A stretch of DNA of 64,000 bases, taken from an uncultured Solirubrobacteraceae bacterium (GTDB lineage: Bacteria > Actinomycetota > Thermoleophilia > Solirubrobacterales > Solirubrobacteraceae). The DNA lies in NCBI GenBank assembly GCA_963805745.1, contig CAWDVD010000002.1:1253119-1317118 (forward strand), read 5' to 3'. Each line of letters starts with the position of its first letter. Within the stretch, counting starts at the first letter, position 1. The notes under the pieces were generated by a model. It made no database searches. It was not told where the DNA came from and saw only the letters and a program-made list of their open reading frames with translations. Positions 32,990 to 44,179 of this stretch are shown piece after piece. Made by a program: the position numbers and the translations under genes.

Positions 32990-33381
32990 CGCTCCAGCTC
33001 CGGTGGGGCATCCGCGGACCGCGCGCGCAGCCCCGCCCTGGCGATCAGCTCCGACAGCGACTCCTCCACACCGGCCAGCCCCTCGCGCTCGGCCAGCTCC
33101 CCCGCCCCGGGACGCGCCACGACCACCACGTCCTGGCCGGGCTTCAACCCACCCTCGACGTGCGCGAACGCCTCGCGCAGCAGCCGCTTGACCCTGTTGC
33201 GCTGCACCGCGCCTCCGACCTTGCGCGAAACCGACAGCCCCAGGCGCGGGCTCTGCGCGGAGGCGTTCGGGAACGTGTAGAGCACGAGATGACGGTTGGC
33301 GGTCGAGCGCCCCTGCCGGTAGACCCGCTCGAACTCGGCGCTGCGCGACAGCCGCCCGCGCGCCGACGCTCGCGGTTTCAT
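32986..33381 (-). CDS. rnpA: Ribonuclease P protein component
   Basis: RLGLSVSRKVGGAVQRNRVKRLLRE (RNR motif). Confidence 0.96.
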   Translation of the reverse strand: MKPRASARGRLSRSAEFERVYRQGRSTANRHLVLYTFPNASAQSPRLGLSVSRKVGGAVQRNRVKRLLREAFAHVEGGLKPGQDVVVVARPGAGELAEREGLAGVEESLSELIARAGLRARSADAPPELER

Positions 33382-33421
33382 CGCCTGTCCGCCGGCGTCG
33401 GGGATCGCGCCACCACGACCC

Positions 33422-33556
33422 TCAGGTGGAGAGGCGCTTGCGTCCCTTGCCGCGACGCCGCTTCAACGTCAGCCGTCCCGCGCGCGAGCTCATGCGGGCA
33501 CGGAACCCGTGCGCGCGGGCGCGCTTGCGCTTCTTTGGCTGGTAGGTGCGCTTCAT
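33422..33556 (-). CDS. rpmH: 50S ribosomal protein L34
   Basis: [22 protein letters not shown]...[12 protein letters not shown]. Confidence 0.98.
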
Positions 33557-33567
33557 GGCGGGCTTGC

Positions 33568-33573
33568 AGTATA
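33568..33573 (-). promoter_or_regulatory. Putative -10 box (TATACT) of the rpmH promoter
   Basis: TATACT lies ~12 nt upstream of the rpmH ATG. No clear -35 box is visible. Confidence 0.45.
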
Positions 33574-33810
33574 GGACCGGAGGGCCATCGCTGCTGTTTT
33601 TCGGTGATGTGTGCGCAGACACACCCGAGGGCGCTCCGAGTGGACCGTCTAGCGCTTCGGCAGTCCTTGGAACTCCGGATGGCTGACGATCCGGGCCTCC
33701 GTCTCGGCATCGATCCGGTAGTGCTCGTGCCACTCGTGGCCCGGCGTTAGCTCAGGATTCGCACGGAGTAGGTTGCGGAGCGCTAGCCCCTGGACGGTCT
33801 CTGGTCATCG

Positions 33811-34092
33811 CTACCAGTCTCGCCGCATCGACAGGAGCCGCACTCGCTCATCGTCGAACGTGTAGAAGATGCTAGCCGCCTCGGCACCGCTAGAAGTCTC
33901 GGCTGGGAATACGATCGGGGCCACCCAAACGGCGGGTGTTGCGGTCTGGAGGCCGAATTCTGGATCTGTCTTGAGGACCGCCTCGACGTACATCATCGCT
34001 TCATCCATGCGATGGAAGTCGCTGTCGATGGCGGCAGCCTCGGCCTCAAACCGAGGTTCGTAGACAAAGTCCCTTCCTACGGAGCCATTCAT
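33811..34092 (-). CDS. Putative RelE/ParE-superfamily toxin (93 aa)
   Basis: ATGA-coupled to the upstream antitoxin. The pattern FVYEPRF...LKTDPEFG...SIFYTFDDERVRLLSMR fits the fold by eye. Confidence 0.55.
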   Translation of the reverse strand: MNGSVGRDFVYEPRFEAEAAAIDSDFHRMDEAMMYVEAVLKTDPEFGLQTATPAVWVAPIVFPAETSSGAEAASIFYTFDDERVRLLSMRRDW

Positions 34093-34649
34093 CCGGCCGT
34101 AAGGCCGAACTCGCGCGCAAGATTCTCGGCGTGCGCCTGCTCCTCGGACGTAAGTTGCTTGCGCTTTCCCCAAAACGCGGCTTCATAAGGGACTGGCGAC
34201 TTAGGGCCAATCTTGTTGTAGGCGAAGATCCACCCCGGAAACTCGTGGGCGACGTCCACGAGTTGCGCGCCGGTGAACTCCTTGTAACGCTCGATCTGGC
34301 GGTCGATGTACTCAAGCTGCTCGGGCGTGAACACGTCAGTGCGGGGAGGTTCCAGCGCCACGGGGATCTCCTGGCGGTCGTACCCCGGCTGCATCTCTAG
34401 GCGGCCTTGCGTCTCTAGATCGCGAATCGCGAGCAGCTCCTCGGTCGGCGCGGGACCTAGCTCATCGGCCACGTAGTTTGCGCCCGTGACTGGCTCGCCA
34501 AGGCGGAAGTAGGCTCCGAAGTCGATCAGAAAAAGCAGCTTGGCGATCCTGATCCGGCCCAGGCCGGGGTGACCCTCATCGCGCGTCTTCTTGGCGATGT
34601 AGAGGTATAGCTCGTTGAGCCGCGTCCTGTCGATGTCCGGGGGTTGCAT
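34089..34649 (-). CDS. Panacea / DUF4065 (SocA/GepA-like) antitoxin
   Basis: IRIAKLLFLIDFGAYFRLGEPVTGANY...LGP and TGAQLVDVAHEFPGW match the family's KLLY...GP...L...H..W pattern. Confidence 0.8.
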   Translation of the reverse strand: MQPPDIDRTRLNELYLYIAKKTRDEGHPGLGRIRIAKLLFLIDFGAYFRLGEPVTGANYVADELGPAPTEELLAIRDLETQGRLEMQPGYDRQEIPVALEPPRTDVFTPEQLEYIDRQIERYKEFTGAQLVDVAHEFPGWIFAYNKIGPKSPVPYEAAFWGKRKQLTSEEQAHAENLAREFGLTAG

Positions 34650-34699
34650 CTCGGGTTGCCTCCCGCACGCATAGCGTAGTAGAGTCGGCTGCCTTCATC

Positions 34700-34722
34700 T
34701 TCGTATACAGCTGATATACGAA
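34700..34722. promoter_or_regulatory. Palindromic operator between the divergent antitoxin and the small ORF
   Basis: TTCGTATA-CAGCTGA-TATACGAA, a perfect 8-bp inverted repeat in AT-rich intergenic DNA. Confidence 0.55.
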
Positions 34723-34745
34723 CACGAGTTTAGGGGTCCTTGCGG

Positions 34746-34946
34746 ATGGCCGAGGTGGAAACCAAATCTGCGCAGCTTCATCCGCTGACGAAGGAGCGGC
34801 TCTCGGAGCTAAGAACGGCACTAAAAAGTGACGAGGGGATCACCGCGACCGAGGGAGACATCATCGGTGCCCTCGTCCACGGGAACACCGTTGCCCAGCT
34901 TGTCGCCCTGCTCCCCGTATATAAACGATATACGAGCAAGCACTAG
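34746..34946 (+). CDS. Small putative DNA-binding protein (ribbon-helix-helix-like, 66 aa)
   Basis: A short strand (KSAQLHP) followed by two amphipathic helices (LTKERLSELRTAL; TEGDIIGALV). A purine-rich RBS lies upstream. Confidence 0.45.
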   Translation: MAEVETKSAQLHPLTKERLSELRTALKSDEGITATEGDIIGALVHGNTVAQLVALLPVYKRYTSKH

Positions 34947-35051
34947 TCCGTCTAACGCGGGCGGCGCTTTCGATGTACTCAAGCTGCCTGCTGGTAGGTC
35001 AGCCGCCGGCCCGCCGCGCGCCCGACGATGGCCGCCATGCGCTCGTTGTCC

Positions 35052-35231
35052 GTGTCCTTGCATGGCGAAGGGCTTGGCAAGCTCGCGGTGGTGCAGTCCG
35101 GAGTCCGTGTGCAGGTGCGTCCGGGCGACATCGATCTGCTCCTCGATGACCGTTCGCAGGTTGTGGCCGCGCACGTTCGGGACCGCCTGCGAGCGCACCC
35201 CGCCGGTCTGACGGGACACGAGTGCGGGGAG
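35052..35231 (-). pseudogene. IS1595-family (ISXO2-like) transposase fragment
   Basis: LPALVSRQTGGVRSQAVPNVRGHNLRTVIEEQIDVARTHLHTDSG...PFAMQGH resembles the DDE core V..GxVRS..VPNV...L...I...I......L.TD. The flanks are degenerate. Confidence 0.65.
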
Positions 35232-35572
35232 TGGACGAGGTGACCGCGAGATGGGCGACCGCAGCGTGACCGTTGACGGCCAGCACGGCTCTATGGAGCC
35301 GGTCCGGCTGCGGCGAGTTCGCGTGGCCCAGTAGGGCCGCGCTCGCAGCAGACCAGCTCGCGCTCTAGCGAGCTTTCGAGTGCCGCGCCGCACGCGGGGC
35401 ACTCGGAGCGCCTTGGGTGTGTCTGCGCACACATCACCTTTTTCCCGCCAAATGCGGGCAGCCCTCTAGAGCCTGTCGAGGGGTTGGGTATAGTCGCCCG
35501 ACCGGGCTCTCGGAGCCCTCCTTCGAATAGCAATCAGCACTTCCTCTGGGAGAGGAGCGGACCGACTCTGCC

Positions 35573-36985
35573 GTGAGCTGCGAGCTCGAGCACATATGGA
35601 CGCGGGTGCAGGCCCAGCTTGCGCTCGTGGTCGACGAGCCCACCTATCGCATCTGGCTCGAGCCGCTTCGTGGCGTGGAGCTCGACGGGGACCGACTCGT
35701 GGTCGAGGCGCCCGTGCACGCGTGCCGCTGGATCCGCGAGCGCTTCGGCAGGGTCATCCAGGCCAGCGTCGAGTCCGTCCTCGGGCCCGACGCGAGCATC
35801 GAGCTCGTCACCGCGTCGCCCGAGGGAGCGCTCGACCCCGCCACCGGCCCGACGGGACCGCGGGCAGCCCGGCGAGAGCGAGGAGCGACGCCACCGCGCG
35901 TCCTCGCGGGGCACGGCGGCACGCTCCCACCAACGCCGACGGGACCGCTCGGCAACCCCAAGCTCACCTTCGACCAGTTCGTCATCGGCGACAGCAATCG
36001 GCTCGCTCACGCCGCAGCGCTCACGGTCGCCGAGATGCCCGCTCAGGCCTACAACCCGCTGTTCATCTGCGGGCCTCCAGGCGTCGGCAAGACCCACCTG
36101 CTCAGCTCGATCGCCAACCTCCTGCTCTCCCACAGTCCCGGCCTGATCGTCCGCTGCACGACCGGCGAGGCCTTCACCAACGAGTTCCTCGGCGCGCTCG
36201 GCGGCGGGCACACCGACGCCTTCAAGCTCCGCTTCCGCGACCTCGACGTCCTGCTCCTGGACGATGTCCAGTTCCTCGAGCGCAAGGCCAAGACCGAGGA
36301 GGAGTTCTTCCACACGTTCAACGCCCTGCACGACAGCGGGCGCCAGATCGTGCTGACCTCCGACCGTCCTCCGCGCGACCTGCAGGCGCTCGAGGACCGC
36401 CTGCGCGAGCGCTTCGAGGCCGGATTGGTAGCGGACATCAAGGCTCCCGACCTCGTGACCCGGCTGGCGATCCTGCGCAAGCGCGTGCAGCACGATCGCA
36501 TCGTGCTCGACGACGACCGCGCGCTCGACGCGATCGCCGGGCGGATCGACTCAAACGTCCGCGCGCTCGAGGGGGCGCTCATCCGCGTCGTGGCGTTCGG
36601 CTCTCTGACCGGCAGGCCCATAACAGGCGAGCTTGCGCAGGAGGTCCTCGACGGGCTCTACCCCCGCCCCTCCTCGCCAGGGCAGCGCAGCCGCACCATC
36701 CACGAGATCCAGGCAGCCACGTGCCGCGAGTTCGGCCTCTCGCCCGCCGAGCTGCTCTCCTCCGCACGCACTGCGCGCATCGCCTGGCCGCGGCAGGTGG
36801 CCATGTATCTCGCCCGCGAGCTCACCGGCGAATCGCTGCCTGCCATCGGGCGCGAGTTCGGCAGGCGCGACCACACGACCGTCCTGCACGCCTGGCGGCG
36901 CACCACCGCGCGAATCGCCTCCGACGAGGCCTCGCGAGAGGCTGTGGAAAAGCTGTGCCGGACACTCAACTCCAGCGACTCATGA
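35573..36985 (+). CDS. dnaA: Chromosomal replication initiator DnaA
   Basis: TFDQFVIGDSNRLA, GPPGVGKTHLL, LLLDDVQFL and the domain IV motif RQVAMYLARELT...FGRRDHTTVLHA. Confidence 0.98.
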   Translation: MSCELEHIWTRVQAQLALVVDEPTYRIWLEPLRGVELDGDRLVVEAPVHACRWIRERFGRVIQASVESVLGPDASIELVTASPEGALDPATGPTGPRAARRERGATPPRVLAGHGGTLPPTPTGPLGNPKLTFDQFVIGDSNRLAHAAALTVAEMPAQAYNPLFICGPPGVGKTHLLSSIANLLLSHSPGLIVRCTTGEAFTNEFLGALGGGHTDAFKLRFRDLDVLLLDDVQFLERKAKTEEEFFHTFNALHDSGRQIVLTSDRPPRDLQALEDRLRERFEAGLVADIKAPDLVTRLAILRKRVQHDRIVLDDDRALDAIAGRIDSNVRALEGALIRVVAFGSLTGRPITGELAQEVLDGLYPRPSSPGQRSRTIHEIQAATCREFGLSPAELLSSARTARIAWPRQVAMYLARELTGESLPAIGREFGRRDHTTVLHAWRRTTARIASDEASREAVEKLCRTLNSSDS

Positions 36986-37139
36986 GCCGACAGCCGCGAT
37001 CGACCGCCCAGCCTGAGAGACTTCTCCTCGGCCCTCCACAGCTCTATCCACCGGCCCACCACACGAATCACCACTGTTCGTGCCCACTGCACATGTCCCC
37101 AAGCCCTACTGATACTGCTCTTCAACTCATGGTCACATC
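36943..37139. other. Replication origin oriC (dnaA-dnaN intergenic region)
   Basis: DnaA-box-like 9-mers (TGTGGAAAA at 36943, CTATCCACC at 37044, ATGTCCCCA at 37093). These are followed by AGCCC and DnaA-trio-like CTA CTG ATA CTG CTC TTC (37106-37123). Confidence 0.75.
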
Positions 37140-38252
37140 ATGAAGCTGTCGCTCTCGGCCGCAGACTTGCTGGCACAGCTGCAAACCACTACACGCGTCG
37201 CCTCGACACGCAGCGCCGTGCAGGCGCTCTCCGGCGTGATGATCTCCGCTCAGCCCGACACCACGCCGGAGTTGCTCGCAACCGACATGGAGATCGGTCT
37301 GCGCGTTCCCCTGCGCGCTGACGTCGCCCGCAGTGGCTCAGCCGTCCTGCCGGCGCGCCTGTTGCTCGACGTTGCCCGCTCGCTGCCGTCAGATACGCTG
37401 ACGATGGAGCTCCGAAGCGCCGAGCAGGACGTCGAGCTCATCTGTGGGCCGACGACGTTCCACCTGCGCACGCTGCGCGCCGAGGACTTCCCGTCTCTGC
37501 CGTCCCCGTCCCCGGACACGCGGGTGACACTACCCGCGGAGGCGTTCATGCAGACGGTCACCCGCGTTGCCCGCTCGGCCTCGCGGGATGAGACGCGCCC
37601 GGTCCTCACCGGGATCCTCATGTCCGCCTCCGGCCAGGAGCTGCGGATGGTCGCCACCGATTCCTATCGACTGAGCGTCAAGGAGACCGCGCTGGAGTCC
37701 GCGTTGCAGGGGAGCCTGGAGGCGAACGTCCCCGCCAGGGCGCTCCAGGAGCTCGTGCGCATCTCCCAGCAGGCGCCCAGCGAGTCGATCGCTGTCAGCG
37801 TCGGGCAGAACCAGGTGATCTTCGAGCTCGGCGACGTCGTCCTCTCCTCGCGCCTGATCGACGGCCAGTTCCCGAACTACCGCCAGCTGCTACCCGAGTC
37901 TGTCGAGCACGAGCTGCGCCTGTCGAGCGCCGAGCTGACCGACGTCGTGCGCCGCATCAGCCTGCTGGCGCAGAAGAACGCACCGCTGCGCCTGAGCTTC
38001 AGCGAGGGCACGCTGACGGTTTCCGCGCAGACCCCCGACGTCGGCGAGGCCAGCGAGGCGATCCCCGTCCCGTTCCACGGCGAGCCGTTCGAGATCGGCT
38101 TCAACCCCGAGTTTCTGCGCGACGGCCTCGAGAGCATCGAGTCCGAGGAGCTCGTCCTCAAGCTGATCAGCCCGCTGCGCCCGGGGCTGATCGAATCCCC
38201 CGACACCGGGGACTTCGTATACCTCATAATGCCGATCCGCCTGAACGTGTGA
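37140..38252 (+). CDS. dnaN: DNA polymerase III beta clamp
   Basis: ATDMEIG, SRDETRPVLTGIL, VATDSYRL, SRLIDGQFPNY and YLIMPIRL. Confidence 0.98.
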   Translation: MKLSLSAADLLAQLQTTTRVASTRSAVQALSGVMISAQPDTTPELLATDMEIGLRVPLRADVARSGSAVLPARLLLDVARSLPSDTLTMELRSAEQDVELICGPTTFHLRTLRAEDFPSLPSPSPDTRVTLPAEAFMQTVTRVARSASRDETRPVLTGILMSASGQELRMVATDSYRLSVKETALESALQGSLEANVPARALQELVRISQQAPSESIAVSVGQNQVIFELGDVVLSSRLIDGQFPNYRQLLPESVEHELRLSSAELTDVVRRISLLAQKNAPLRLSFSEGTLTVSAQTPDVGEASEAIPVPFHGEPFEIGFNPEFLRDGLESIESEELVLKLISPLRPGLIESPDTGDFVYLIMPIRLNV

Positions 38253-38366
38253 CGTCATGGCCGGCGCATCTCGGCGTCCTCGGTCGCTCGCGTGCGTAGC
38301 ACGCCACGCTCCCTGCGTCCTTGATCTGCTTGGCCCTGACGCCACACGACGCTCGGGGGGCTTCTA

Positions 38367-39494
38367 GTGCGCGTCCTCAGCGTGCAGCTGCGCGACTTTC
38401 GCACCTACACCCGCGCGGAGGCGGGCATCGGCGAGGGCCTGACGGTCGTCCACGGACCCAACGGCGCCGGCAAGTCCAACCTGCTGGAGGCGCTGTACTT
38501 CGGGTGCACGGCCCGCTCGCCGCGCACTCGCAACGATCGCGAGCTCGTGCGCTTCGGGGCGCAGGCCGCACGCGTCGTCGTACGGCTGCAAGACGGAGCG
38601 GATGCCCATGAGCTGAGCGTCGGCTTCGGAACGCTGGAGGCAGGCGGGGATTCCGTCAAGCCGGTCAAGCGCATGACCGCCGACGGAGCCCCCGTGGAGC
38701 GGCTGCTCGACGTCGAGATCCGGCCCCTGGTGAGCGTCTTCATGCCCGATCGGCTGGAGCTGCTGAAGGGGCCGCCGGCCGTTCGCCGAGCCCACCTCGA
38801 CCAGGTCGTCGCGGCGATCTGGCCGTTGCGCGCGGACACGCGCAGGCAGTACTCGCGAGTGCTCGCCCAGCGCAACGCGCTGCTCGCGCGAATCCGCTCG
38901 GGGCGTGCGTCGGACGCGACGCTGTCCACGTGGGACCGCGAGCTGGCCGCCAGCGCGCTCGAGCTGCGCGCCGACCGCGCCGCCGCGATCGACCTGCTGG
39001 CCGAGCCGTTCTCCCAGCGCGCTGCGCAGCTCGGATGCAGCGGCGGGGTCGCACTCGCCTACCGGCCCCGCTCGCACGCCGCGGACGAGGAGGAGTTCGT
39101 GGCCGAGCTGCGCGAGCGGCTGCCCGGAGACCTCGAGCGGGGCTTCTCCGGCCATGGACCCCACCGCGACGAGCTCGCGATCCTGCGCGACGGGCGCGAG
39201 CTGCGCGTCTACGGCTCTCAGGGGGAGCAGCGCCTCGCGCTGCTGGCGCTGCTGCTGGCGGAGCGCGCGCTGCTCGCCAGCGAACGCCGCCGCACGCCGC
39301 TGATGCTGCTCGACGACGTCATGAGCGAGCTCGACGGCGAGCGCCGCGAGCTGCTCGCCCGCGAGCTGCGCGCGGGCGGCCAGAGCGTCATCGCGACAAC
39401 GGACCTTGCTCACGTTCCCGGCGCGACGGACGCCTCCGTGACGCGCCTGCGCATATCGCCCGGCGCGATCCTGCAGGAGGCGATCGCCGCATGA
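38367..39494 (+). CDS. recF: DNA replication/repair protein RecF
   Basis: GPNGAGKSNLLEA, GPHRDEL, GSQGEQR and LLLDDVMSELD. Confidence 0.97.
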   Translation: MRVLSVQLRDFRTYTRAEAGIGEGLTVVHGPNGAGKSNLLEALYFGCTARSPRTRNDRELVRFGAQAARVVVRLQDGADAHELSVGFGTLEAGGDSVKPVKRMTADGAPVERLLDVEIRPLVSVFMPDRLELLKGPPAVRRAHLDQVVAAIWPLRADTRRQYSRVLAQRNALLARIRSGRASDATLSTWDRELAASALELRADRAAAIDLLAEPFSQRAAQLGCSGGVALAYRPRSHAADEEEFVAELRERLPGDLERGFSGHGPHRDELAILRDGRELRVYGSQGEQRLALLALLLAERALLASERRRTPLMLLDDVMSELDGERRELLARELRAGGQSVIATTDLAHVPGATDASVTRLRISPGAILQEAIAA

Positions 39495-39781
39495 GCAGAA
39501 CCGCCCCGCGACCCCTGACCGCCGCGCTCGGGGATCTCACCAGCGCCCTCGCACCCGCCAGCACGCTCGCGCGGGTGCAGGAGGTCTGGGAGCGCACGGC
39601 CGGCCCGGCGATCGCCGCCTGCGCGCGCCCCACCGCCGAGCGCGACGGCGTCCTCACGGTCACCTGCGCAGCCGCCGTATGGGCGCAGGAGCTGGACCTC
39701 ATGGCCGGCGTGCTCGTCCCCCGCCTCAACGCCGCGCTCGGCGCCGAGCGCGTCCGCGAGCTGCGCTGCCGGACCGGCTGA
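39491..39781 (+). CDS. DUF721 / DciA-family protein
   Basis: VWERTAGPAIA...DGVLTVTCAAAVWAQEL, in the canonical position between recF and gyrB with an ATGA overlap. Confidence 0.88.
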   Translation: MSRTAPRPLTAALGDLTSALAPASTLARVQEVWERTAGPAIAACARPTAERDGVLTVTCAAAVWAQELDLMAGVLVPRLNAALGAERVRELRCRTG

Positions 39782-39931
39782 TGCGCTCGCCTGACCACCG
39801 GACTGACGGGCCGGCAGCGCTTTGGGCCCCTGAGCGCATATCGCCCTGTTTCCCGCCATTTTGCAGGCATTTAGGGCCTCCCGACAGCCCGATCAGGGGT
39901 GCCGCCATGCTATCCTTTCAGTCATAGCTAA

Positions 39932-44179
<4,248 letters not shown>

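What the first reader, a model, noticed from the sequence alone, without database searches (positions are those of the whole stretch)
33597..35444. TIR-bounded cassette carrying a Panacea toxin-antitoxin module, inserted between rpmH and dnaA
Seen: 39-40-bp inverted repeats, an exact TTTTTC duplication and an IS1595-type transposase relic, with passengers being a DUF4065 antitoxin, an ATGA-coupled 93-aa partner and a divergent small ORF. Removing the element leaves a normal-sized ~174-bp rpmH-dnaA spacer. It sits 46 bp upstream of the rpmH start. Established: IS1595-family derivatives can carry passenger genes, and Panacea antitoxins pair with diverse toxins. Inference: a trans-mobilised addiction or defence cassette lodged in the dnaA/rpmH promoter region.
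Basis: partly seen in the sequence, partly recalled or inferred. Interest (0 to 1): 0.82.

Follow-up and report, generated by a model that had tools for sequence, protein, structure and literature searches.

The report
Decayed IS1595 transposon carrying toxin-antitoxin cargo
A 1.8-kb broken transposon carrying an intact three-gene Panacea toxin-antitoxin module sits exactly between rpmH and dnaA, and its relatives repeatedly insert at the same short palindromic motif in front of dnaA and gyrB in related soil bacteria.

Summary
The 40/39-nt inverted repeats are at 33603-33642 and 35400-35438. An exact TTTTTC duplication flanks them. The antitoxin is a Pfam SocA_Panacea protein, and a 93-aa partner overlaps its stop codon (ATGA). 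A small ORF is transcribed divergently. A transposase relic is also present.

None of 24 same-genus genomes carries the cassette. The seven sites aligned show one uninterrupted TTTTTC(C)CGCCAAATGCGGGC, so this is a precise, recent insertion.

An intact IS1595 transposase from a congener matches the relic (60% identity, E=1e-19). The relic lacks about 177 N-terminal residues and the third catalytic block. The 93-aa protein has a RelE/ParE fold. The antitoxin and the 93-aa gene are under purifying selection (dN/dS 0.07-0.2).

The element belongs to a Solirubrobacterales IS1595 lineage with a shared TIR and 8-bp duplications. Some members are autonomous and some lack a transposase. They carry TA or defence cargo, including a second PanA type, SoFic and PIN/DUF433.

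A new result is that about a third of 68 distinct element ends abut one palindromic motif. The motif lies upstream of dnaA, of gyrB (unoccupied in this window at 39848-39875) or of a DUF1802-like gene. Ends lie at a nearly fixed distance from it, in both orientations.

No second TIR copy exists in this genome, so this copy is probably stranded. Toxicity, neutralisation and the targeting mechanism are inferred.

The parts
33597..33602 (.). Left copy of the target-site duplication, TTTTTC. The 8-mer here is TGTTTTTC.
   Evidence: The family norm is 8 bp. The other three M1 insertions have 2 more nt on the dnaA side.
33603..33642 (+). Left terminal inverted repeat (40 nt), GGTGATGTGTGCGCAGACACACCC...
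   Evidence: The same TIR core is found in 15 genome loci and 40 metagenome loci.
33649..33810 (-). Relic of the end-proximal backbone gene (orf88/orf101 family). The C-terminal 48 codons are 94% identical to L054 orf88. The N-terminal ~40 codons are lost through an out-of-frame deletion.
   Evidence: tblastn E=3e-29; frames.
33811..34092 (-). 93-aa candidate toxin with a RelE/ParE fold. It is acidic (by my count 17 D/E and 9 K/R/H).
   Evidence: AlphaFold2 gives pLDDT 66 with beta-alpha-alpha-beta-beta-beta topology. Top Foldseek PDB hits are HigB2, RelK, PrpT, YoeB, YafQ and ParE2. There are 169 remote homologues, and 7 of 81 tested hit Pfam ParE_toxin. dN/dS is 0.09-0.2.
34089..34649 (-). 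186-aa PanA antitoxin (Panacea domain at residues 36-140 plus a ~45-aa C-terminal tail). Its stop overlaps the 93-aa start (ATGA).
   Evidence: Pfam PF13274 E=1e-12. 13 close homologues, all carrying PF13274. dN/dS is 0.07-0.12.
34702..34720 (.). Operator-like palindrome O1, CGTATAC-N5-(G/A)TATACG, in the 96-bp divergent promoter region.
   Evidence: A paired palindrome with conserved arms and a variable centre, spaced 202-214 bp in seven copies (window, L024, L027, L043, L051, L052, L054). In L033 only an overlapping pair 11 bp apart was found.
34746..34946 (+). 66-aa small helical protein transcribed divergently. It is a candidate DNA-binding regulator. It travels with the IS backbone and with both PanA types.
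   Evidence: 23 homologues. Contexts. AlphaFold2 predicts three helices with pLDDT 69. There is no significant structural match.
34916..34934 (.). Operator-like palindrome O2, CGTATAT-AAACG-ATATACG, inside the 3' end of the 66-aa gene (codons PVYKRYT).
34982..35234 (-). IS1595-family transposase relic. Residues ~178-238, including the second catalytic D (HLHTDSG), are fused out of frame to residues ~296-322. The NQAE...K block is deleted.
   Evidence: The reference transposase has PF12762 and PF12760.
35235..35399 (-). Remnant of the transposase 5' region: about 165 bp where about 530 bp is expected. A possible CPxCG zinc-ribbon trace at 35387-35401 is not significant (E=1.3).
35400..35438 (-). 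Right terminal inverted repeat (39 nt).
35439..35444 (.). Right copy of the target-site duplication, TTTTTC.
35441..35459 (+). Host target motif M1, TTTCCCGCCAAATGCGGGC. It is conserved in the empty sites of relatives, and the element abuts it.
39848..39875 (+). Unoccupied second target motif M2, TGTTTCCCGCCATTTTGCAGGCATTTAG, in the DciA-gyrB spacer of this genome. The homologous site is occupied in many relatives.

Best explanation
This is a decayed, non-autonomous derivative of an IS1595-family transporter IS, that is, an IS that carries passenger genes inside its inverted repeats. It transposed precisely into the rpmH-dnaA spacer of a Solirubrobacteraceae-like genome. It landed in the A/T tract that borders a conserved host palindrome (M1, CCCGCCAAATGCGGG). 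Afterwards it lost most of its transposase and its end-proximal orf88 gene through out-of-frame deletions. A three-gene cargo remains intact and selectively maintained. The cargo consists of a PanA (Panacea) antitoxin, a translationally coupled RelE/ParE-fold 93-aa protein and a divergent 66-aa protein whose gene is bracketed by two CGTATAC-N5-GTATACG palindromes.

Proposed mechanism (inferred): the 93-aa protein is a growth-inhibiting toxin, more likely ParE-like than a RelE-type RNase because it is acidic. PanA neutralises it by direct binding, probably using its C-terminal half. That half co-varies with the toxin between the two PanA types of the family. The 66-aa protein represses the divergent promoters through the two operators. 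This would give a three-component TA like paaR-paaA-parE. The module would stabilise the element or act in abortive-infection defence.

Shown: boundaries, empty sites, the relic, domain and fold assignments, purifying selection, membership of a mobile family with autonomous and transposase-less members, and the recurrence of insertion at M-type motifs. Inferred: toxicity, neutralisation, repression, present immobility, and that the hot spot reflects targeting by the transposase.
For: TIRs and duplication.
Empty sites: none of 24 same-genus genomes matches the element interior. In G001 the two flank matches abut with a 5-bp overlap. The joined flanks align without a gap to G001 and G018.
Relic.
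PanA.
93-aa fold and remote ParE links.
dN/dS of 0.07-0.2.
Autonomous relatives carry the same cargo order. L024 has an 8-bp duplication GGCTTTCC and a 322-aa transposase. L020/21 has AAAATATA. L052 has GGAAATCA.
Transposase-less relatives: L029-31, L054, and the SoFic cassette at two different sites.
Horizontal spread: PanA is 94% identical to the L024 copy, while RecF, DciA and GyrB of the two hosts are 78-85% identical. Element GC is 57-64% against 70-75% in the flanks.
Hot spot: 21 of 68 distinct TIR flanks carry the motif, 20 of them ending 5-9 nt from the TIR and one 14 nt away. The fuzzy motif occurs about once per 2.8 kb in the same sequences. Both orientations occur at both M1 and M2.
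Conserved operator pair.
Literature: PanA pairs with ParE-domain toxins and often lies beside transposases (PMC8832971). IS1595 elements make A/T-rich 8-bp duplications (PMC12561309). Transporter ISs and mobile insertion cassettes (MICs) are established concepts (PMC3129680).
Against: The 93-aa protein gets no direct Pfam, NCBIfam or PADLOC hit. The structure model is of only moderate quality (pLDDT 66, TM 0.4-0.5). The protein is acidic, which is unusual for RelE/ParE toxins, so toxicity is unproven.
The 66-aa protein has no recognisable fold, so its regulator role rests on the palindromes alone.
Only 6 of the expected 8 duplicated bases match.
Absence of a helper in the genome rests on one TIR pattern search (24 nt, up to 3 mismatches) in an assembly estimated 93% complete.
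Hot-spot occupancy could partly reflect survivorship (insertions elsewhere being lethal or lost) or inheritance within clades, rather than active targeting.
Confidence: 0.8

Rival explanations
1. The cassette is a currently active mobile insertion cassette that a resident IS1595 transposase moves in trans.
For: Family members without a transposase occur at several sites. Both TIR tips are intact here. A 99.6%-identical cassette in another metagenome (L028) joins a different sequence beyond 34953.
Against: Only the two arms of this element match the TIR anywhere in the 3.99-Mb assembly. No other IS1595 transposase lies in the 64-kb window. The relic shows that the element once had its own transposase. 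Two bases next to the right tip appear to have been lost.
Confidence: 0.15
2. The recurrent occupation of the dnaA- and gyrB-proximal motifs is not transposase targeting. It would be the residue of generic A/T-rich target choice plus selection. In a ~70% GC genome these are among the few A/T tracts where insertion is tolerated. Vertical inheritance or homologous exchange between resident elements would then spread them.
For: Non-motif insertions of the same lineage all use A/T-rich 8-mers: AAAATATA, AGAAAAAA, CGTTTATG, GGTTTTTT. IS1595 elements are known to prefer A/T-rich targets. The duplication preserves an A-tract for each divergent promoter.
Against: Insertions lie at the same nucleotide, within one base, relative to the palindrome at three unrelated loci and in both orientations. 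Cargo and hosts differ between them. Other A/T tracts in the same spacers are not used. All 24 congeners of this genome are empty at M1.
Confidence: 0.3
3. The Panacea and 93-aa pair is not a toxin-antitoxin system. The 93-aa protein would be a non-toxic RelE/ParE-fold accessory, for example a regulator or a transposition or defence cofactor.
For: The protein has net negative charge, lacks obvious catalytic basic residues and has no direct family hit. Panacea has been proposed to act as a sensor domain (PMC10440598).
Against: The gene pair overlaps (ATGA) and is conserved in at least 7 contexts. The fold matches only toxins of TA systems. PanA-ParE pairs are documented. The PanA C-terminal half and the partner are swapped together between element variants.
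Confidence: 0.2
4. The element has been co-opted to control rpmH or dnaA expression, for instance through an outward promoter or a terminator in the TIR.
For: It sits about 22 nt upstream of the conserved rpmH -10 box (TATACT) and about 60 nt upstream of the dnaA TATAGT. The right TIR plus the T-run scores as a terminator-like hairpin facing dnaA.
Against: All congeners function without it. No sigma-70-like promoter was found in the element. The duplication leaves both core promoters and the M1 motif intact. Relatives insert in either orientation.
Confidence: 0.05

Closest known systems
IS1595-family transporter ISs and IS-derived mobile insertion cassettes (Siguier, Gagnevin & Chandler 2009; De Palmenaer et al. 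2004, as cited in PMC3129680)
   Same: Intact relatives have a DDE_Tnp_IS1595 plus zinc-ribbon transposase. The elements have terminal inverted repeats starting GG(Y)GATG and A/T-rich 8-bp duplications. Passenger genes lie inside the repeats. Transposase-less derivatives exist.
   Different: This copy is a relic with a 6-bp matching duplication. The lineage (TIR GGYGATGTGTGCGCWGACAMACC) was found almost only in Solirubrobacterales MAGs. It shows strong site preference for a palindromic host motif, which I did not find reported for IS1595 in the papers consulted. The subgroup was not assigned.
PanAT (Panacea antitoxin) type II TA systems (Kurata et al. 2022, PMC8832971; Ernits et al. 2023, PMC10440598)
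   Same: A standalone Panacea-domain protein overlaps a small toxin-like gene. ParE-domain partners and neighbouring transposases are already recorded for PanATs. The partner and the adjoining antitoxin region swap between variants.
   Different: The partner is a divergent, acidic RelE/ParE-fold family that Pfam does not recognise. A third, divergently transcribed small gene with two flanking operators is conserved. The module is bona fide cargo between TIRs. None of this has been tested experimentally.
paaR-paaA-parE three-component TA systems (Hallez et al. 2010, cited in PMC8832971)
   Same: A ParE-like toxin, a dedicated antitoxin and a separate small regulator.
   Different: The antitoxin is Panacea, not PaaA. 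The regulator is divergent rather than co-transcribed, and its fold is unassigned.
Site-specific transposons that use safe-harbour sites, such as Tn7 at attTn7/glmS, and the defence-rich cargo of Tn7-like elements (PMC8649781)
   Same: Insertion recurs at a fixed distance from a conserved host sequence next to essential genes without disrupting them. The cargo is enriched in TA and defence genes (SoFic, PDC-M24B, PIN/DUF433, PanAT).
   Different: The element has a single DDE transposase of the IS1595 type. No TnsD- or TniQ-like selector was identified. Preference is not absolute, since roughly half of insertions lie elsewhere. The targets lie upstream of dnaA, gyrB and a DUF1802-like gene.

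Membership tests
IS1595 family | Transposase with a DDE_Tnp_IS1595 (PF12762) catalytic domain and an N-terminal zinc ribbon (PF12760) | tested here: inconclusive
   The window relic gives no Pfam hit. It aligns to residues 178-238 and 296-322 of intact transposases that carry both domains. The second catalytic D is retained. The first D and the E/K block are deleted. Intact relatives with the same TIR and cargo carry both domains.
IS1595 family | Terminal inverted repeats | tested here: met
   40/39-nt arms. The core is shared with elements that encode IS1595 transposases.
IS1595 family | A/T-rich target duplication of about 8 bp | tested here: inconclusive
   Complete relatives have 8 bp exactly: GGCTTTCC, AAAATATA, GATTTTTC, GGAAATGA, TACGCGAT and others. 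In the window only TTTTTC (6 bp) matches. The dnaA-side junction is 2 nt shorter than in three other M1 insertions. This fits a later 2-bp loss.
Transporter IS / mobile insertion cassette | Passenger genes unrelated to transposition lie between the IRs, and the MIC form has no functional transposase | tested here: met
   Three intact cargo genes and a dead transposase lie inside the TIRs.
Transporter IS / mobile insertion cassette | Mobilisation in trans by a cognate transposase | not testable with these tools
   Indirect support only. The transposase-less SoFic cassette is found at two sites. No second TIR copy exists in the window's genome.
PanAT type II toxin-antitoxin | The antitoxin carries the Panacea/DUF4065 domain | tested here: met
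   PF13274 E=1e-12, 49.4 bits against a cut-off of 25.7. The NCBIfam SocA equivalog is not met (12 bits against 190), so this is not a SocA orthologue.
PanAT type II toxin-antitoxin | A conserved two-gene architecture less than 100 nt apart in at least two species | tested here: met
   The genes overlap by ATGA. The pair is conserved in L020-L035 contexts from different MAGs and metagenomes.
PanAT type II toxin-antitoxin | Toxicity of the partner and neutralisation by complex formation | not testable with these tools
   This needs expression assays.
RelE/ParE toxin superfamily | beta-alpha-alpha-beta-beta-beta fold | tested here: met
   AlphaFold2 topology. The top Foldseek PDB hits are predominantly RelE/ParE-type toxins (ranks 1-11), with probabilities up to 1.0, but TM is only 0.4-0.5.
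RelE/ParE toxin superfamily | Sequence-family membership (Pfam ParE_toxin PF05016 or RelE families) | tested here: not met
   There is no hit for the window protein at E<=1. Only 7 of 81 remote homologues reach PF05016, best E=3.5e-5. It therefore works like, and folds like, this superfamily, but forms a separate sequence family.
Three-component TA (paaR-paaA-parE type) | A separate DNA-binding transcriptional regulator of the operon | tested here: inconclusive
   A conserved 66-aa gene and two conserved palindromes are present. There is no fold or domain match.

The most novel reading that the evidence does not exclude
A lineage of single-transposase IS1595 elements in Solirubrobacterales homes to a ~15-bp palindromic host motif (CCYGC-A/T3-5-GSNGG plus an adjacent A/T tract). 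The motif lies upstream of dnaA, gyrB and one other gene. The elements insert at a fixed base, in either orientation, without breaking the promoters. They use these origin-proximal sites as safe harbours to deliver exchangeable TA and anti-phage cargo (two PanAT types, SoFic, PIN/DUF433, PDC-M24B). The motif itself may be the operator of an unknown regulator shared by dnaA and gyrB, which the transposase or an accessory protein recognises.
Probability: 0.5. Interest if true: 0.75.

Novelty: new variant of a known kind. Interest (0 to 1): 0.62.

Why it matters
The cassette alone is a clean, well-bounded example of TA cargo on an IS1595 transporter IS, which is a known kind of thing. The recurrent insertion site adds value. 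DDE insertion sequences of this family are regarded as having only a loose A/T-rich preference. Here a lineage repeatedly occupies the same base next to a conserved palindrome in front of two essential replication and topology genes.

If this is true targeting, it gives a simple one-protein system for studying sequence- or protein-guided target choice. It also points to an uncharacterised cis-element shared by the dnaA and gyrB promoters in a poorly studied actinobacterial order. It further shows how defence genes are shuttled in soil Actinomycetota. Finally, it defines a new RelE/ParE-fold partner family for Panacea antitoxins and a conserved third component with paired operators.

Tried and rejected
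- Pfam and NCBIfam on the relic ORFs, the 93-aa protein and the small ORF gave no hits. PADLOC on the three cargo proteins gave none.
- An exact 22-nt TIR scan of genome contigs gave 0 hits. The degenerate pattern was needed.
- A PDB sequence-profile search with the 93-aa family gave only spurious coiled-coil or TPR hits.
- Foldseek on the 66-aa model gave nothing significant, so 'RHH-like' could not be confirmed.
- Rfam on 33000-40200 gave no family.
- blastn of the element against PLSDB plasmids gave no match.
- The sigma-70 consensus scan found no promoter.
- The DnaA-box scan was at chance level, so no statement on oriC is made.
- I considered that the motif might be part of the element. 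I rejected this because it is present in empty sites.
- I considered that M1 might be a terminator. I rejected this because the T-run precedes the stem on one strand and an A-run follows it on the other.
- G012 has a 1.4-kb extra gene in the same spacer but no TIR, so it is not this element.
As a result there was no whole-genome transposase search, no order-wide mismatch-tolerant TIR scan and no read-level test for empty-site alleles or expression.
Full report
**Observation.** Two inverted arms lie at 33603-33642 and 35400-35438. They begin GGTGATGTGTGCGCAGACACACCC and differ by one substitution and one 1-nt indel. TTTTTC flanks them directly on both sides. rpmH (33422-33556, minus strand) starts 46 nt from the left end, and dnaA (35573-36985) starts 134 nt from the right end. 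Removing the 1836-bp element and one TTTTTC leaves a 174-bp spacer.

**The insertion is precise and recent.** A BLAST of 33000-36200 against 40 relatives found the rpmH side and the dnaA side in every genome, but the element interior in none. The relatives comprised 24 species of the same genus and 16 of the same order. In G001 the two flank matches overlap by 5 bp. The joined flanks align end to end with G001 and G018. All seven aligned genomes carry a single (A)TTTTTC(C)CGCCAA(A/T)TGCG(G/A)(G/C)(C/T) at the junction. A metagenome contig (L027) is 99.1% identical across the rpmH junction, so the insertion exists in at least one close strain. Element GC is 57-64% against 70-75% around it.

**Transposase relic.** Profile libraries miss the relic. 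A congener (G005) has an intact 319-aa protein with PF12762 and PF12760. Its residues 178-234 match 35064-35234 at 60% identity (E=1e-19), and residues 291-318 match 34985-35068 in another frame. The 322-aa transposase of L024 gives the same picture. About 177 N-terminal residues and residues ~239-295 are gone. The lost parts include the first catalytic D and the NQAE...K block, so the gene is dead. The 'CPACG' next to the right TIR may be a zinc-ribbon trace, but the match is not significant.

**Cargo.**
- The 186-aa ORF is a Panacea/DUF4065 protein (PF13274, E=1e-12). It is not a SocA orthologue by the NCBIfam cut-off.
- The 93-aa ORF overlaps its stop (ATGA). It has only 9 close homologues, all 89-94 aa.
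- With that alignment AlphaFold2 gives a beta-alpha-alpha-beta-beta-beta model (pLDDT 66). The best PDB matches are HigB2, RelK, PrpT, YoeB, YafQ and ParE2.
- A profile search of 1.8 billion representatives finds 169 small proteins. Seven of 81 tested reach Pfam ParE_toxin.
- I therefore place it in the RelE/ParE fold superfamily as a separate sequence family. It is acidic, which argues against a ribosome-dependent RNase and leaves its toxicity unproven.
- PanA and the 93-aa gene show dN/dS of 0.07-0.2 against the L024 and L025 copies, so both are maintained.

**Third gene and operators.** The divergent ORF is 66 aa from its ATG at 34746. It has 23 homologues and accompanies both PanA types, always next to the transposase 3' end. 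Its model is three helices, with no significant structural neighbour. Its gene is bracketed by two palindromes, CGTATAC-N5-GTATACG. One lies in the 96-bp divergent promoter region (34702-34720). The other lies inside its own 3' codons (34916-34934). The pair recurs with conserved arms, a variable centre and 202-214 bp spacing in seven copies: the window, L024, L027, L043, L051, L052 and L054. L033 shows only an overlapping pair 11 bp apart. This is the signature of a protein operator. Which protein binds is inferred.

**End-proximal relic.** Between the 93-aa stop and the left TIR lies the relic of a fourth backbone gene. Its last 48 codons are 94% identical to L054 orf88, and the first ~40 were lost out of frame.

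**The family.** The look-up of encoding contigs and two TIR pattern scans recovered the lineage. Hits are uncultured Solirubrobacteraceae or Solirubrobacterales MAGs, one Acidimicrobiales MAG and soil metagenomes.
- Autonomous members:
  - L020/21 is 2.4 kb and carries a transposase, PanA, the 93-aa gene and one more gene, with duplication AAAATATA.
  - L024 is 4.3 kb. It carries a dCTP-deaminase-fold gene, DUF1653, an HTH gene, the transposase, the small ORF, PanA, the 93-aa gene and orf101, with duplication GGCTTTCC.
  - L052 has a 332-aa transposase, and L043 has a frameshifted one.
- Members without a transposase:
  - L029-31 is 1.46 kb and carries a small ORF, PanA and a 91-aa gene.
  - L054 lies in the rpmH-dnaA spacer in the same orientation as here, with duplication GATTTTTC.
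  - A 1.56-kb cassette holds only a Fic protein that scores as PADLOC SoFic (E=4e-113). It is found at two different sites.
  - L079 is a 790-bp MITE-like element.
- Other cargo includes HTH_66/DUF433 with PIN_10, DUF3800, and DUF1828/PDC-M24B.
- Every complete relative has an exact 8-bp duplication.
- In the window only 6 bp match. The dnaA-side junction is two bases shorter than in the three other M1 insertions. I read this as a 2-bp loss after an 8-bp (TGTTTTTC) duplication.

**Horizontal movement.** PanA here is 94% identical to the L024 copy, while RecF, DciA and GyrB of the two hosts are 78-85% identical. The small ORF is 91% identical to the L052 copy, against 69-78% for that host's DciA and RecF. 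The two PanA types share the first ~60 codons and the small ORF, but differ in the C-terminal half and in the toxin. This matches the partner swapping described for Panacea.

**Hot spots.** The flanks of 68 distinct TIR ends were compared. Twenty-one carry a palindromic motif. In 20 of them it ends 5-9 nt from the TIR, and in L073 it ends 14 nt away. Many further ends are the opposite sides of the same insertions, as their complementary 8-mers show. There are three sites.
- M1 lies upstream of dnaA (...GCCCGCATTTGGCGGGAAAAA|TIR). It is occupied in this window, L033-35 with L057, L042, L054, L060, L056/L075 and L058.
- M2 lies between DciA and gyrB (...CCTGCAAAATGGCGGGAAAnnn|TIR). It is occupied in L024, L029-31, L043, L036 with L047, L051, L052, L065 with L078, L076, L079, L086 and L087. 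L046 carries a 40-bp scar there.
- M3 lies upstream of a DUF1802-like gene. It is occupied in L050, L059/L091 and L085.

Both orientations occur at M1 (this window against L033) and at M2 (L024 against L029, and L043 against L052). The motif belongs to the host. It is present in empty M1 sites, and this window has an unoccupied M2 at 39848-39875. A strict version of the motif occurs almost nowhere else in 364 kb of loci. The remaining insertions use other A/T-rich 8-mers, one of them at a tRNA 3' end.

IS1595 elements are known to prefer A/T-rich 8-bp targets. I found no report of a motif-specific hot spot. Whether the pattern is targeting or survivorship cannot be settled here. The base-exact recurrence at three loci favours targeting.

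**Effect on neighbouring genes (inference).** The conserved TATACT lies 11 nt upstream of the rpmH ATG, and the conserved TATAGT lies upstream of dnaA. Both remain attached to their genes. The duplication leaves an A/T tract on each side. The right TIR plus the T-run forms a weak terminator-like hairpin facing dnaA.

**Mobility of this copy.** The TIR pattern (up to 3 mismatches in 24 nt) occurs only at the two arms in the 3.99-Mb assembly, and no other IS1595 transposase lies in the window. The copy is therefore probably stranded. L028, a 99.6%-identical cassette joined to unrelated sequence beyond 34953, hints at a second context in another sample.

**Comparison with the literature.** PanA antitoxins paired with ParE-domain toxins, three-gene variants and frequent transposase neighbours are described (PMC8832971). 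Neutralisation can occur through the Panacea core or through added terminal segments (PMC10440598). Transporter ISs and MICs are established concepts (PMC3129680). The cassette is thus a new member of known kinds. The lineage's site preference and its defence-cargo repertoire are the new variant.

**Verdict.** Interest is 0.62.

Noticed in passing
window 35441-35459 and 39848-39875; L050:1012-1025: The same palindromic motif with a flanking A/T tract (TTTCCCGCCA(A/T)3-4TGC(G/A)GGC) lies upstream of dnaA, upstream of gyrB and, in relatives, upstream of a DUF1802-like gene. It may be the operator of an unknown regulator shared by these promoters. It occurs only twice in the 64-kb window.
   Followed up: partly
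L046:1833-1888: In one MAG the DciA-gyrB site holds only a 40-bp scar, flanked by 8-bp direct repeats GATTTCCC. The scar is a 15-nt TIR tip plus a 25-nt TIR in the same orientation. It looks like an excision or deletion footprint of the element.
   Followed up: partly
window 33556-33576; alignment: In this genome, G001 and G018 the conserved TATACT box lies only 11 nt upstream of the rpmH ATG, so the mRNA would be nearly leaderless. Four other congeners have an extra ~90-nt leader containing a GGAGA ribosome-binding site.
   Followed up: no
L028:1-115: A metagenome contig is 99.6% identical to the cassette from the left TIR to just past the small ORF's stop (window 33615-34953). It then continues into unrelated sequence containing an 11-bp inverted repeat. 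This is a second structural context for the same cargo.
   Followed up: partly
window 34472-34649 against L052/L054/L043: Two PanA types, only ~35% identical overall, share about 70-77% nucleotide identity over the first ~60 codons and the small ORF. They differ completely in the C-terminal half and the toxin. This is a clear recombination mosaic.
   Followed up: partly
L012:100-1500 (G012): One congener has a 429-aa gene inserted in the rpmH-dnaA spacer right next to the M1 motif, without any TIR. The same spot accepts other DNA.
   Followed up: partly
L042:207 and L042:4916-6383: One MAG has both hot spots occupied. A PanAT cassette sits at M2. A different IS1595 member (TIR GGCGATGTGTGACTTGACAAACCC, with a transposase fragment at the locus edge) sits at M1.
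   Followed up: partly
L040:5890-7330: The DUF433/PIN_10 cassette of L039 recurs at the same site in another MAG, with a 1.5-kb nested insertion encoding a 343-aa transposase-like protein.
   Followed up: no
L079:1168-1958: A 790-bp TIR-bounded element without long ORFs (MITE-like) occupies the M2 site. Its two 8-mers differ by one base (GGAAAAGG and GGAAAATG).
   Followed up: no
window 39944-44179: gyrB is 1411 aa, far longer than usual. Homologous GyrB genes in relatives carry Intein_splicing and LAGLIDADG_3 Pfam hits.
   Followed up: no
L017:3470-3530 (G005): Downstream of the congener's intact IS1595 transposase there is a sequence resembling a tRNA 3' end on the opposite strand (GGTGGAACTTGCGGGAATCGAACCCGC). 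Another family member (L038/L045/L071) is inserted right at a tRNA 3' end.
   Followed up: no
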